Assembly: GCA_037379345.1 (NCBI GenBank)
Contig: CM074519.1
Coordinates: 40,530,851-40,594,850 of the forward strand
DNA length: 64,000 nt
Source of the DNA: Perna viridis
Lineage: Eukaryota
Direction of reading: 5' to 3'
The position numbers were made by a program. Position 1 is the stretch's first letter. Each line of letters starts with the position of its first letter. This document shows, piece by piece, positions 3,001 to 61,000 of this stretch.

Positions 3001-4043
3001 CAGTTCTGAGTAAATAATAGCCTGAACCCCCCCTCCCAGTGCACAAAATATAGGCCCCTGAAGATATATATGGTATATACACAGTACAAGGTACTTACAA
3101 TTTTGTGAAGTTCATCTTCATCATCTATATTATCATATGTAGGCATGGCTGTGTTTTGGTCTCCTTCTTTAGTGTGGAATCTGTTATTAACGGGTCTACC
3201 ACCCTGAAATAAAGGGAGATAACTTACATTTCTACCTACAATATCTGTGAATTAAAACTGTGAAGAAGACATACAATTCAAATAAATGAACAGGATTTTG
3301 GACTCTATTGATGATACTCTTATTGAATGGTCATGATGATTTGCACTAAGTAAAAATCATTGTACCAAGAGCAACATTGTAAGAAATGCAAGCAGAGGAA
3401 ATATACAGGTCTAAAAGCAAACCTGGCTCACTACTTCTGCTTATTCATCTAAAAATGTTATGAATTCTTACCAGCTGTTTGTTAAATAAAATGAATGATT
3501 TCCAAGTTTCCTTAAATTAGCATGAAAATGATGAAACCATCATTAGAAATTCCATAGGTTAACACCAACACAACACAAGTCACTTCTCACTAATTACTCT
3601 CACTCTGTTATTGTTATTATAATTACTATCAACATGAGGAGTTTGGTAGCTCTCTAGATTCCTCTGTTATTATTCATTACCATGGAAACTATCAAGTGCT
3701 AATGTAGTGCATTCTTAAAACATTGTGATGTTCTTCTCATCAGATTTTGCACTTCTGGTTTAGAAAACATTGTCAGTCTGATTATCTTATCTCAATCAAT
3801 GTATGTATGGCTGTTAGTACAGATTGGTCATACTGGGGTGAGGGATTATATCTTGAAAATAAGTATTAATGGACTCCATTTTCATCATCAACTACTGCAC
3901 CAAACCATGACAAGAACGGTTGCTCTGTGAGCTAGCACAACAAAAAAAAATCTGGCATAGCCTGTTGGACTAGTACAAAGCAGAATCCAATAGTATATGA
4001 TTGGCAAAATGTTATCATCTGCTACATACATGACAATTTACGG

Positions 4044-4076
<33 letters not shown>

Positions 4077-58000: not shown

Positions 58001-61000
58001 CAGCCAAATCAGCTTAAGAGATTAGCTGTAACTTTCAAGTCAAATTACAGCACCCCAAATCGATGAACTAGACATCACATGGTAAGGTCTAAAACCACAG
58101 GCATTCCATGTCCTGTTCAGACAACCTAGGAGTATTATCTACTTAAACTGTCTAATTCTATATAATACTGAAATCACCTATACAATTCTGTATAATTCTA
58201 TCATTTGCTTTATAGTTCCATATACACATTATAATCCATGTTTAATGCTATCAGAAGCTGTTCCATGTACATAGTATAGACTCATGATTATTTGTTGTAA
58301 ACAAAAATTCAGGTCAATTGTTCTATTCTGAACTTTACTGCCAGCACCAAATCTACTGTTTTGTGTTAATTGTATTAATAATGTAAATTTTAAAGTTTGA
58401 AAAGTCGAAGAGGAAAATTTGTACTTTCCTACAAAACCTAAGCAAATACTTTACATCCAATACATGTATGTTCAGCCTTATTCTACTATAAGTACATGTA
58501 CAATATTCAGGCAAAATACTAACAAATTCGATAAATCCAGTGCATAAATAAAACAGAATTCTTAAAACAAATTTCTTTTCATCTTAACAAAGTTTATAGA
58601 AGCAATAAAATTTATTTACCAGTAAGTTGTTAATGCTAAACCTTGTACTAAGACACTATTTCAATAAGAACTGATTTTTTCAATGTTAAGACTTCCATGA
58701 GCAAAGCACTTCAGAAAAAAAATGACAAAACCAAGTGACATTTTTGTTGAAGTATTCCAATGTTGAGAAAAACTTCTAAGATTTTCTGATATACATATGT
58801 ACAAATGATAAGAATGTTGATACCAACTACATCAGTAAACTTTGTAGTAAAATATCCATAAACAGCCACAATAATAAATCCAGCTTACCTCTATCTCTTT
58901 GTCTCAGCTGTCGTAATGCTAATCGTATCTGTTTCTTCTCCTCATAATCGTTGGTCTGGGTTAACTGCAAGTACAAAAAAACAGTCAGATTTGTAAATAA
59001 TGAAAAAATATTGTTTTTATCTAGAAATAAGTGATAGAAAGCCGAACAAGAACAAGAATGTCATTTTGAGCAATGCCATTTAATTATTAGATTGGCAGAA
59101 TTTATCATAGGATAACCAAACAAGATAGTTCCACTATACCATGACATAGTAAGTTGGATAGCTTGATTCCTACAGAAATCTAGTAACTTAAAAGTCGAAT
59201 AAGGACCCCCCCAACCCCTCCCCACTACCCCAGAATAGGACCCCCAACCCCTCCCCACTACCCCAGAATCATTGAACTAGCCATAATAGTTAGGTCTGAA
59301 AACCATATTATTTTTTTTACATTTGTATGGACACAAATGTCCTACCTCAGTATGCAAGAGACTCAGTACCTTTTCTCTCATGCTGATATAGAAGTCCACA
59401 TTCTTTGTTTTACAATGTAAGTATCCCATAAGTTATATATGGTGTTTGATCAAAGAGTACCATTCATCTCTTTAAGGTACTTTAAGCTATAAGGGATAAC
59501 TATCCCTAGATTTCAATTGTACTGTTATTCTTACAAAAAAAAGGTCTATCACAAGGGTCCAAATTTCAAGAGAGGAAGGTCCAGGACATTACAAGTTTCA
59601 AATCAACTTGAATAAAATATAAAGTCCTCAATAAAGTGTCATTGATTATAGTTGAAGGTCTCTGACCTTGGTACCTAAAATTTCAAAGGGCCTCTGACAA
59701 AAACTTAAACAATCCAAGATCTTGAACCACTGCTTATTTGAATCCCTTCTATATAACAGTGGTTCTTCATTTTAAAGTTATAATATACTAACATTTGTTT
59801 TCAAATTTTCAGATTAAAAAATTAATATGTTCATTACATCTGTTATGCATGCTGTACATAGAATACAACCTCATACAACTACAATATTTTATCTTTAAAA
59901 GATTGTAACAAGAAATACAACAAATAAGCCCATCTCTCATTCTTTATCTTTAATGGTGTGATTTTCTACCATTTGTTCCTGTAGGCTATAATGGGTATAT
60001 CTATGAAATAGTCTAGAAAATTGATCCCTATTTTAATCAAAAGGGCAGTGTTTTACATCAGATATTGAAGTTGTAGGATAGATTTAACACCTGATGGATA
60101 TTGATCTATTAAAACCTTAAATCTATTTTATCTGGAATCTATTAAATACTATGAAGAATGCCAGGTCACATATCTGATACATCTAAGGTAAAGATAAACT
60201 TACAATCCAGGTCCAAGACCTAATTCTATAGTTCTATACTCGTGTACTTTAATGGTAGACTAACAGGGGGTTTCCATCGAAATTCAAATACTATATAACA
60301 CATACGTCTATAATGGTTTTCAGGACCCTACTGTGGCCCTGGGGTTGCAGTTGTTTTTTTTTTTTTTTTTTTTTTGGGGGGGGGGGGACTTTATCAAACA
60401 TTCAACTTCAGATTGTGTTCCCCTTTAAACCATGATGACTGGTGTAAGGTTAAATGACAGGACCAAATGAATCAACATTTAAAAAGAGGGACAAGATGAT
60501 TGTGCTTATTTTCTAGTGCAGAGTTGATTGGTGAATCTTACAAAATACATACCGTTCAAATTCTTGTTAAGTATGGCTTAAGATTCTCAAATATTTTTTT
60601 AAGCTTATCACTTTGAAAAAAGTAAATTCAGTAAAAGAAGTTCAGAAAACTTAATGACTCAAACATACATCCATCAAAGTTCCCATCATTCCTGATACAT
60701 CTAAACTCATCATTATAATACCTGTTAATATCTATCTCACCTTTGTATTTATAAAGTTTTGTGACCTTGACCACAAAAGTTGTGATTTTGCCTCCACATC
60801 CATATCCAGACTTAATTTCCGCTGCTGAAGCGGAAGTTCTGAATTTAGATCCAAACTTAATTTCCTTTGTATGTAACCGACAAACATAGTACAGTTAGTT
60901 GACACTACATCACCTAGACTAAAGACCTACATGCCAATGTATAATTCCCAACATTAAATCATAACTCTAATCCACTTAATGACAACACATATATAGAAGG

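What the first reader, a model, noticed from the sequence alone, without database searches (positions are those of the whole stretch)
3099..58964. Smoothelin-type motifs and a titin/MLCK-like four-Ig array in one protein
Seen: phase-consistent splicing joins a smoothelin-motif exon (58889-58964), four I-set exons and the start of a second smoothelin motif (3099-3203) in one frame. Known: vertebrate smoothelin has this motif plus a C-terminal calponin-homology domain and no Ig domains, whereas palladin, myotilin, MLCK and titin use I-set arrays. Inference: a large invertebrate thin-filament or dense-body scaffold combining both modules, likely mislabelled titin-like or unc-89-like by automatic annotation; a candidate for molluscan smooth/catch muscle architecture.
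Basis: partly seen in the sequence, partly recalled or inferred. Interest (0 to 1): 0.7.

Follow-up and report, generated by a model that had tools for sequence, protein, structure and literature searches.

The report
Smoothelin gene carrying four Ig domains
The window holds the middle part of a bivalve muscle-cytoskeleton gene, a smoothelin relative that also carries four titin-like immunoglobulin domains; the same arrangement is present in gene models from molluscs, an annelid and a ribbon worm, and I found no bench study of it.

Summary
On the minus strand, 11 exons with AG/GT borders form one phase-consistent chain. They run from the second half of a Smoothelin motif (58964..58889; PF12510 27.0 bits, cut-off 23), through a serine-rich exon, a conserved unnamed module and four one-exon I-set domains (70-84 bits), then a 977-nt linker exon, to the first half of a second Smoothelin motif (3203..3099). 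The chain closes only with a 52-nt micro-exon (36457..36406).

The gene runs off both ends of the window. Orthologues carry the missing half-motifs, about 750-860 N-terminal residues and a C-terminal CH domain.

Of the 120 best long relatives listed, 38 combine Smoothelin, I-set and CH. All 38 are from molluscs (28 species), the annelid Owenia or the nemertean Lineus. The 82 others lack Ig: vertebrates, Ptychodera, Patiria, Tachypleus and three unnamed.

Ten literature searches found no paper describing the architecture. A thin-filament scaffold role is inference. Side findings are a predicted eight-strand beta module and repeated L-R-R-[S/T]-x-S motifs. This is an uncharacterised variant of a known family, of moderate interest.

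The parts
58889..58964 (-). Exon with the second half of Smoothelin motif 1 (76 nt, phase 0 in, 1 out)
   Evidence: PF12510 27.0 bits vs cut-off 23, E 4.3e-6, profile 27-49/50. Identical in 25 of 25 residues to four of the five Mytilus models tested, and 96% over a 26-residue match in the fifth. Splice sites.
37036..37949 (-). Serine-rich exon, probably disordered (914 nt, phase 1 in, 0 out)
   Evidence: No Pfam family. 51-54% identical to Mytilus models and contiguous with the previous exon in their numbering. Donor GTAAGT.
36406..36457 (-). 52-nt micro-exon (phase 0 in, 1 out) that restores the frame
   Evidence: Bounded by tttcag| and |gtaaca. Its length of 1 mod 3 repairs the 37036/35152 phase mismatch. 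It fills the 13-21 orthologue residues left unplaced by tblastn. Its similarity to Mytilus is weak (E 37), so this exon is inferred.
34892..35152 (-). Exon E3 (261 nt, phase 1>1). Its last ~45 codons begin the conserved beta module and hold one L-R-R-S-x-S motif
   Evidence: 76-82% identical to Mytilus. Matches Owenia, Lineus, Patella, Haliotis, Aplysia, Solemya, Mercenaria and Pomacea just upstream of the E4 match. No Pfam family.
34128..34556 (-). Exon E4 (429 nt, phase 1>1), the core of a family-specific beta module followed by a disordered acidic or serine-rich tail
   Evidence: No Pfam family. Only 34 clusters at E<=1e-3 among 1.84 billion representatives. AlphaFold2 gives pLDDT 85-94 over residues 1-80, as five long strands. 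No PDB fold match at E<=0.001.
33771..33881 (-). Candidate alternative cassette exon (111 nt, phase 1>1)
   Evidence: 52% identical over 33 residues to an insert present in two of the five Mytilus models tested (P0013, P0011; E 4e-4). AG and GTATGT borders, open frame.
25941..26225 (-). I-set domain 1, one exon (285 nt, phase 1>1)
   Evidence: PF07679 70.7 bits. Best solved relative titin 3b43. Best match is the first Ig of Patella, Haliotis, Aplysia, Solemya and Mercenaria.
25132..25416 (-). I-set domain 2, one exon (285 nt, phase 1>1)
   Evidence: PF07679 72.6 bits. Titin 3b43 best, telokin E 1e-8. Matches the second Ig in five mollusc orthologues.
18678..18977 (-). I-set domain 3, one exon (300 nt, phase 1>1)
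   Evidence: PF07679 83.7 bits. Titin 3b43 best. Matches the third Ig in five mollusc orthologues.
17039..17326 (-). I-set domain 4, one exon (288 nt, phase 1>1)
   Evidence: PF07679 73.1 bits. Titin 3b43 best. Matches the fourth Ig in five mollusc orthologues.
15683..16659 (-). Linker exon (977 nt, phase 1 in, 0 out) with three L-R-R-[S/T]-x-S motifs, otherwise fast-evolving
   Evidence: No Pfam family. 62-66% identical to Mytilus and 29-34% to oysters, Pinctada and scallop. Motif conservation.
3099..3203 (-). Exon with the first half of Smoothelin motif 2 (105 nt, phase 0>0)
   Evidence: No Pfam hit alone. 69-72% identical to Mytilus residues that run into their PF12510 match. Splice sites.
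60741..60904 (-). Conserved stretch in the intron upstream of motif 1, possibly an alternative exon
   Evidence: 46% identical to residues 702-736 of one M. edulis model (E 8.5e-6). AG and GTGAGA borders. At 164 nt it does not fit a simple phase 0>0 cassette.

Best explanation
The window is the interior of one large gene, more than 64 kb long and on the minus strand, from a mytilid-like bivalve. The gene is the lophotrochozoan form of smoothelin.

From the window plus its orthologues, the protein runs in this order:
- a long N-terminal part, outside the window;
- Smoothelin motif 1;
- a serine-rich disordered stretch;
- a conserved all-beta module of about 135 residues with no family name;
- four tightly packed I-set domains, each on its own phase 1-1 exon;
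- a disordered linker with conserved L-R-R-[S/T]-x-S motifs;
- Smoothelin motif 2;
- a single C-terminal CH domain, outside the window.

Shown here: the exons, their frames, the domain content, and conservation of the arrangement in three phyla.

Inferred: the protein is a muscle cytoskeletal scaffold. It would sit on thin filaments through the smoothelin-type CH end, as reported for vertebrate SMTNL1. The Ig array and the beta module would be additional docking surfaces. The basic-serine motifs in the linkers would be kinase-regulated switches. Because seven consecutive exons are phase 1-1, Ig number can vary by exon skipping without breaking the frame.

I put the gene identity and architecture at about 0.9, and the thin-filament scaffold mechanism at about 0.45.
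For: Exons, borders and phases.

Pfam results: Smoothelin 27.0 bits and four I-set domains at 70-84 bits.

Orthologues:
- Seven long proteins matched the linker exon at E<=1e-3, from 4988 candidates.
- All six full-length models tested map collinearly onto the window, with continuous residue numbering.
- All five bivalve orthologues scanned have 4 I-set stretches, Smoothelin and one CH. Two further Mytilus models have 4 I-set, 3 Smoothelin and 1 CH. Owenia has 4 I-set and 4 Smoothelin, Lineus 4 and 3, Mizuhopecten 4 and 1.
- The Smoothelin-CH end of an orthologue hits vertebrate smoothelins at E of 1e-53 to 1e-63.
- Ig1 to Ig4 match position for position in all five four-Ig mollusc orthologues tested (Patella, Haliotis, Aplysia, Solemya, Mercenaria).

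No other gene is in the window. Nine further ORFs gave no Pfam family above cut-off and Rfam gave no match.

Function, from papers:
- Loss of the CH2 domain changed SMTNL1 from lying along F-actin to a diffuse distribution (PMC7240100, passages).
- PKA phosphorylation of SMTNL1 at Ser301 enhances tropomyosin binding (PMC5359911, abstract).
- A 'smoothelin-like protein' is enriched in scallop catch muscle at mRNA and protein level (PMC5963113, passages).
- A gene annotated Smoothelin marks muscle clusters in Schistosoma japonicum (PMC13355927, one passage).
Against: - No transcript evidence for this species. The junctions are inferred from consensus sites, phase and orthologous models, which are themselves automatic predictions.
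- The micro-exon has only weak similarity to Mytilus (E 37).
- The CH domain, half of each Smoothelin motif and the N-terminal third are not in the window, so the family assignment of this locus rests partly on orthologues.
- No binding partner was tested.
- The Ig domains look like generic titin-type I-set domains. None of the 60 best solved relatives shown for each of the four is palladin or myotilin, the known actin-binding Ig proteins.
- One-to-one Ig correspondence is not seen with Owenia or Lineus.
- The L-R-R-[S/T]-x-S motifs are absent, by the strict pattern, from all 8 gastropod proteins it was counted in without a hit, plus Octopus and Owenia. A ninth gastropod model, Haliotis asinina, has a single match that 9 of 100 shuffles also reach. 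They may therefore be a bivalve speciality and not part of the core mechanism.
- The scallop and schistosome 'smoothelin' genes in the papers could not be matched to this gene.
Confidence: 0.7

Rival explanations
1. Two genes, not one. An Ig-only gene of the MLCK, telokin or titin type would be nested on the same strand inside a long intron of a conventional smoothelin gene. The fused models in databases would then be artefacts of automatic prediction.
For: All orthologous models seen are automatic predictions with inconsistent names. Some are fragments with Ig only, such as the 812-aa Ylistrum 'MLCK' model, which has no Smoothelin or CH in its precomputed list, and P0139 and P0145. No transcript was available here.
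Against: - Smoothelin motifs lie on both sides of the Ig array on the same strand.
- Every junction is phase-compatible, and no exon of the chain carries a stop.
- The order of beta module, Ig array and linker is kept in 28 mollusc species, Owenia and Lineus.
- Orthologue numbering is continuous across Smoothelin|S-rich, E4|Ig1 and Ig4|linker.
- The Ig-only models are short and look truncated.
Confidence: 0.05
2. The same gene, but working mainly as an elastic or thick-filament-linked connector, a small titin- or projectin-like spring. The tandem Ig array and long disordered serine-rich segments would bear passive tension between dense bodies and filaments, with the CH end only as an anchor.
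For: All four Ig exons have titin I65-I70 (3b43) as their best solved relative. Myosin-binding protein C, myomesin, obscurin and telokin are among the matches. The domains are separated by only about 5-10 residues (exon lengths). E2 and the linker exon are long, have no Pfam family and evolve fast.
Against: Four Ig domains make a very short spring. There are no Fn3 or kinase domains in the window or in the 12 orthologues scanned. The family-defining end is a smoothelin-type CH, which the papers read link to thin-filament proteins. The high PDB scores to 3b43 are sums over several similar domains and do not show specific kinship.
Confidence: 0.15
3. The same gene, but acting chiefly as a regulatory adaptor like vertebrate SMTNL1. 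It would be a kinase-controlled switch binding tropomyosin or calmodulin, or acting on myosin phosphatase, tuning relaxation or catch without being a structural scaffold.
For: The conserved L-R-R-[S/T]-x-S motifs occur five times in the window. Pteriomorph bivalve orthologues have 3-4 each against 0.01-0.13 expected, and 0 of 100 shuffles reach the observed count. SMTNL1 is phosphorylated by PKA, which enhances its tropomyosin binding (PMC5359911 abstract). A 'smoothelin-like protein' is enriched in catch muscle (PMC5963113).
Against: The motifs are not found by the strict pattern in 8 of 9 gastropod proteins, in Octopus, Owenia or vertebrates. The kinase is unknown. The large size, the Ig array and the beta module have no counterpart in SMTNL1. 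No interaction was tested.
Confidence: 0.15

Closest known systems
Vertebrate smoothelin (SMTN, long isoforms)
   Same: Shares Smoothelin motifs (PF12510) and, in the orthologues, a single C-terminal CH domain. The orthologue's C-terminal 300 residues match vertebrate smoothelins at E of 1e-53 to 1e-63, with 35-54% identity in the best local alignment. Described as a smooth-muscle cytoskeletal protein (PMC2120883, search listing and abstract start only).
   Different: Vertebrate entries carry no I-set domain. The window's gene has four, plus a beta module and long linkers. Full-length Mytilus models are 2400-2530 aa, against roughly 1030-1320 aa for the vertebrate rows listed.
SMTNL1 / CHASM
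   Same: Same family. It has a disordered N-terminal part regulated by a basophilic kinase, and a CH end that targets thin-filament proteins. This is the model for the proposed regulated binding.
   Different: SMTNL1 is small and has no Ig domains. The site context of its Ser301 was not compared here. The window's motifs are conserved in bivalves only.
Titin, unc-89/obscurin and MLCK (the names given by automatic annotation)
   Same: Tandem intracellular-type I-set domains. Titin I65-I70 is the best solved relative of all four. One Ig per phase 1-1 exon.
   Different: No kinase, Fn3, SH3 or DH-PH domain in the window or in the 12 orthologues scanned. Only four Ig domains. The ends of the protein are smoothelin-type.
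Palladin, myotilin and myopalladin
   Same: Small arrays of I-set domains flanked by disordered, serine-rich regions in a muscle cytoskeletal protein. That these proteins bind actin through Ig domains is recalled, not tested here.
   Different: None appears among the 60 best solved relatives shown for any of the four Ig exons. They have no Smoothelin motif or CH domain (recalled).

Membership tests
Smoothelin family (SMTN / SMTNL) | Smoothelin motif, Pfam PF12510, at or above the gathering score | tested here: met
   Exon 58964..58889 scores 27.0 bits (cut-off 23), E 4.3e-6, or 23.7 bits in its wider frame. Only profile positions 27-49 of 50 are covered, because an intron splits the motif.
Smoothelin family (SMTN / SMTNL) | Second Smoothelin motif at 3203..3099 | tested here: inconclusive
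   No Pfam hit for the exon alone at E<=10. It aligns to Mytilus residues that form profile positions 16-28 of their PF12510 match. The second half lies outside the window.
Smoothelin family (SMTN / SMTNL) | Single C-terminal calponin-homology domain | not testable with these tools
   Not in the window: tblastn with orthologue C-termini found nothing in 1-3300. No animal genome collection was on hand to extend the locus. All 12 orthologues scanned have one C-terminal CH domain.
Smoothelin family (SMTN / SMTNL) | Orthology of the C-terminal region with named smoothelins | tested here: met
   Tested on an orthologue (P0007 residues 1570-1870), not on the window. 772 proteins at E<=1e-10. Outside Lophotrochozoa, the 79 of 82 listed rows that carry a source name are mostly named smoothelin or smoothelin-like; some are 'hypothetical' or 'uncharacterized'. 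All 82 carry PF00307 + PF12510.
Titin / obscurin (unc-89) / MLCK giant muscle kinases | Tandem I-set domains | tested here: met
   Four I-set exons at 70-84 bits. Titin 3b43 is the best solved relative for all four.
Titin / obscurin (unc-89) / MLCK giant muscle kinases | Protein kinase domain, with or without Fn3, SH3 or DH-PH domains | tested here: not met
   None in any window exon, in the 12 orthologues scanned, or in the precomputed Pfam lists of the 38 Ig-bearing rows.
Palladin / myotilin family | Ig domains closest to those of palladin or myotilin | tested here: not met
   No palladin or myotilin chain among the 60 best PDB sequence matches shown for any of the four Ig exons. This is a sequence-only test.

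The most novel reading that the evidence does not exclude
Ig-smoothelin is an ancient spiralian giant form of smoothelin, possibly the ancestral bilaterian form, with vertebrate smoothelin as a reduced derivative. Its CH end, four-Ig array, undescribed beta-meander module and kinase-controlled L-R-R-[S/T]-x-S linkers would together make a regulated tether between thin filaments and thick filaments or dense bodies. That would make it a missing structural player in tonic or catch force maintenance in molluscan smooth muscle.
Probability: 0.1. Interest if true: 0.8.

Novelty: new variant of a known kind. Interest (0 to 1): 0.45.

Why it matters
Smoothelin is used as a marker of contractile smooth muscle, yet its molecular role is only partly understood. 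The work I read is on vertebrate proteins that lack Ig domains.

A form conserved across molluscs, an annelid and a nemertean adds a titin-type Ig array and a new beta module to the same CH end. This gives three things:
- A natural experiment on what smoothelin anchors to.
- A correction for a set of misnamed database entries ('titin homolog', 'unc-89-like', 'MLCK').
- A concrete, testable candidate for the filament-linking machinery of bivalve smooth and catch muscle, where a 'smoothelin-like protein' has been reported as enriched.

The all-phase-1 exon block also illustrates how Ig cassettes can be shuffled into, and spliced out of, a cytoskeletal gene.

Tried and rejected
- **First half of motif 1 in 58965-64000.** Low-stringency tblastn with orthologue N-termini and pattern scans found nothing convincing. 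A weak match at 63657..63604 (E 1.9) lacks the motif and was rejected.
- **Second half of motif 2 and the CH domain in 1-3300.** No tblastn hit and no pattern hit.
- **A 4-nt-shifted donor at 37032 as the fix for the phase mismatch.** Possible on paper, but it has a poor GTTTCA site next to a perfect GTAAGT. The micro-exon was preferred.
- **Naming the E4 module.** No Pfam family. No usable hit in the protein atlas. Foldseek against PDB gave 0 matches at E<=0.001 for either model. The best hits were generic long beta sheets: actin-capping protein beta-subunit sheet, gasdermin and leukocidin hairpins, and OspA mutants, with TM at most 0.42. No kinship is claimed.
- **One-to-one Ig orthology with Owenia and Lineus.** Best matches are not collinear.
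- **Other genes or RNAs in the window.** Nine further ORFs gave no Pfam family above cut-off, with one sub-threshold YpeD-like match at 17.1 bits. Rfam gave 0 matches at gathering score.
- **Literature.** Ten searches found no paper describing a smoothelin with Ig domains. Smoothelin+Mytilus gave 0 papers, smoothelin+Crassostrea 2 irrelevant, and smoothelin+I-set 1 irrelevant.
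Full report
**Scope and limits.** The window has no N and is 30-34% G+C. It is clearly not human: its exons are 50-100% identical to Mytilus proteins. No animal genome or transcript collection was on hand. I therefore could not extend the locus or test junctions with reads. Paper supplements are closed.

**Observation.** A stop-to-stop ORF list and a Pfam scan of ten minus-strand frames found all the claimed pieces.
- PF12510 Smoothelin lies in the frame holding 58964..58889, at 23.7 bits against a cut-off of 23. 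For the 25-codon exon alone it scores 27.0 bits, E 4.3e-6, profile positions 27-49 of 50.
- PF07679 I-set scores 70.7, 72.6, 83.7 and 73.1 bits in four separate frames.
- The frames at 37974..37006, 35204..34854, 34647..34123, 16681..15638 and 3251..2952 have no family above cut-off.

**Exon borders.** I read sequence around each frame and ran a splice-site and phase script. This gives eleven constitutive exons, all with AG acceptors and GT donors:
- 58964..58889 (phase 0 in, 1 out)
- 37949..37036 (1>0)
- 36457..36406 (0>1)
- 35152..34892 (1>1)
- 34556..34128 (1>1)
- 26225..25941, 25416..25132, 18977..18678 and 17326..17039 (the four Ig exons, each 1>1)
- 16659..15683 (1>0)
- 3203..3099 (0>0)

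None has an internal stop. The donor at 37036 and the acceptor at 35152 do not fit each other, and the 52-nt micro-exon at 36457..36406 is needed to close the frame. Its similarity to Mytilus is weak, so it is inferred from splice sites, phase and the 13-21 orthologue residues otherwise unplaced. The sum is 3972 nt, or 1324 codons, not 1382.

**The gene is one unit and is partial.** The 325-residue linker exon, searched among longer proteins, found seven proteins at E<=1e-3 out of 4988 candidates. They are:
- two Mytilus galloprovincialis models (63% identity; UniRef name 'Smoothelin')
- Pinctada
- a Ylistrum fragment named 'myosin light chain kinase, smooth muscle-like'
- Ostrea 'titin homolog'
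- Saccostrea 'unc-89-like'
- an uncharacterised Crassostrea protein

tblastn of these and of five full-length Mytilus models (2401-2532 aa), plus the 2458-aa Mizuhopecten 'Smoothelin', places every exon in order. Residue numbers run on across junctions; in P0010 they are 866|867, 1444|1444, 1830|1830 and 2155|2155. The motif-1 exon is identical in 25 of 25 residues to four of the five Mytilus models, and 96% identical over a 26-residue match in the fifth.

In those models about 745-866 residues precede this exon. The first half of motif 1 ends the preceding exon. Neither was found in 58965-64000. The second half of motif 2 and the CH domain follow 3099 and are not in 1-3300. Both Smoothelin motifs are split at the same place by a phase-0 intron. 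The gene therefore exceeds the 64-kb window on both sides.

**Architecture in relatives.**
- All five bivalve orthologues scanned show four I-set stretches, one CH and one to three Smoothelin stretches.
- Two full-length Mytilus models show 4 I-set, 3 Smoothelin and 1 CH.
- Owenia shows 4 I-set and 4 Smoothelin, Lineus 4 and 3, Mizuhopecten 4 and 1. One Octopus and one Pomacea isoform show 2 I-set.

I searched the Smoothelin-CH end of the Crassostrea orthologue among proteins of 1028-3273 aa. This gave 772 proteins at E<=1e-10, of which the best 120 are listed. Of these, 38 carry PF12510 + PF07679 + PF00307. By my count from the names they are 35 rows from 28 mollusc species (bivalves, gastropods, Octopus), two Owenia rows and one Lineus row. 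Owenia is an annelid and Lineus a nemertean, both Lophotrochozoa.

The other 82 rows carry PF12510 + PF00307 without any Ig. They are the hemichordate Ptychodera, Patiria, Tachypleus, three unnamed rows and vertebrates. Whether the Ig block was gained in Lophotrochozoa or lost elsewhere is open. Cnidarians, flatworms, brachiopods and insects did not appear in what I could see, and shorter or longer proteins were not searched.

**The Ig array.** All four exons have titin I65-I70 (3b43) as their best solved sequence relative. Those large scores are sums over several similar domains. Other matches include DSCAM, Robo and contactins, and muscle proteins such as myosin-binding protein C, myomesin, obscurin and telokin. 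No palladin or myotilin appears among the 60 rows shown for each.

The exons encode 95-100 residues each, so the domains are nearly contiguous. Within molluscs the four domains correspond one to one. Each window Ig has as its best match the Ig at the same rank in Patella, Haliotis, Aplysia, Solemya and Mercenaria, that is, in all five four-Ig mollusc orthologues tested. This is not so in Owenia or Lineus, although the order E3, E4, Ig array is kept there.

Seven consecutive exons (E3, E4, the cassette and Ig1-4) are phase 1-1. This fits acquisition by exon shuffling and lets isoforms vary Ig number.

**A conserved module without a name.** Exon 34556..34128 is 66-80% identical to Mytilus and about 42-55% identical to oysters, scallop, Patella, Haliotis, Solemya and Mercenaria. 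phmmer over 1.84 billion representatives found only 34 clusters at E<=1e-3 (24 at 1e-10, 2 at 1e-30). One is Owenia, where the match lies just before its Ig array.

Of five long unnamed hits scanned, four have three or four I-set stretches and three have Smoothelin. AlphaFold2 on a 20-sequence alignment gives pLDDT 85-94 for residues 1-80, as five long strands, and about 50-65 for the rest. A 261-aa database fragment spanning the E3-end and E4 equivalents gives eight strands over residues 25-158, with block pLDDT of 84-97 over residues 31-150.

Foldseek against PDB found nothing at E<=0.001 for either model. The protein atlas gave no usable hit. I report it as a predicted beta-meander module of about 135 residues, specific to this protein family, with unknown partner.

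**Linker motifs.** The window's exons contain five copies of L-R-R-[S/T]-x-S: one in E2, one in E3 and three in the linker exon.

I counted the pattern L-[RK]-R-[ST]-x-[ST] in the 60 proteins P0001-P0060.
- Pteriomorph bivalve orthologues have 3-4 copies, at matching places. Shuffling predicts 0.01-0.13, and 0 of 100 shuffles reach the observed count.
- Heterodont and protobranch bivalves have 1-3 copies, and Lineus has 1.
- Haliotis asinina has a single match that 9 of 100 shuffles also reach.
- The other eight gastropod proteins, Octopus, Owenia and all deuterostome rows have 0.

By recalled kinase consensus rules, arginine at -3 and leucine at -5 from the serine suits CaMKII/PKD-type kinases. 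One copy also fits R-R-x-S for PKA. No kinase was tested.

**Function.** This part is inference. In papers, SMTNL1 lay along F-actin and became diffuse when its CH2 domain was removed (PMC7240100, passages). PKA phosphorylation of SMTNL1 enhanced tropomyosin binding about ten-fold (PMC5359911, abstract). A scallop study lists a 'smoothelin-like protein' among proteins enriched in catch muscle at both mRNA and protein level (PMC5963113, passages). A schistosome atlas uses a gene annotated Smoothelin as a muscle-cluster marker (PMC13355927, one passage).

I could not link either of those genes to this family, and the scallop paper's supplementary tables may hold the accession. The most likely reading is a thin-filament-associated scaffold whose Ig array and beta module add docking sites and whose linkers are phospho-regulated. 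An elastic connector and a mainly regulatory adaptor are the live alternatives. A nested separate Ig gene is unlikely.

**Novelty.** Ten full-text searches found no paper describing a smoothelin with Ig domains, and none pairing smoothelin with Mytilus. The library lacks most subscription journals, so this is not proof of absence. I could not consult InterPro architecture tables. The proteins are in public databases under automatic and mostly misleading names. I therefore rate this as an uncharacterised variant of a known family. The window's gene is one more member of that variant.

**Rest of the window.** Nine other ORFs have no Pfam family above cut-off and Rfam finds nothing. The introns hold several minisatellites.

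Noticed in passing
window 34128-34556 plus 34892-~35030 (minus strand): A conserved module of about 135 residues just upstream of the Ig array. It has no Pfam family and only 34 related clusters among 1.84 billion representatives. It is predicted with high confidence as an eight-strand beta meander, with no PDB fold match at E<=0.001.
   Followed up: yes
window exons 37949..37036, 35152..34892 and 16659..15683 (minus strand): Five copies of L-R-R-[S/T]-x-S. The motif is kept at matching positions in bivalve orthologues, 3-4 per pteriomorph protein against 0.01-0.13 expected. By the strict pattern it is absent from 8 of 9 gastropod proteins, Octopus, Owenia and deuterostomes. These may be kinase sites.
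   Followed up: partly
window 33771-33881 (minus strand): A 111-nt phase 1-1 open exon with AG and GTATGT borders. It is 52% identical to a 33-residue insert found in two of the five Mytilus models tested, so it is probably an alternatively spliced cassette between the beta module and Ig1.
   Followed up: partly
window 60741-60904 (minus strand): An open stretch in the intron upstream of motif 1, 46% identical to residues 702-736 of one M. edulis model (E 8.5e-6). Its 164-nt length does not fit a simple in-frame cassette between phase-0 borders.
   Followed up: partly
window 58889-58964 and 3099-3203 (minus strand): Both Smoothelin motifs are interrupted at the same position by a phase-0 intron, which suggests the motif was duplicated together with its intron.
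   Followed up: no
window 22529-23471, 27618-27938, 31419-31634, 43413-43861, 46142-46740, 51919-52189, 55479-55785: Intronic minisatellites with periods of 28-74 nt. One has 12.9 copies of a 74-nt unit, and one has 5.3 perfectly identical copies of a 41-nt unit.
   Followed up: no
orthologues P0005-P0007, P0010, P0008, P0023 (not the window): Orthologues differ in the number of Smoothelin motifs: one to four Pfam stretches. Oysters have a third, more divergent copy upstream of motif 1. The window cannot show whether its own gene has one.
   Followed up: no
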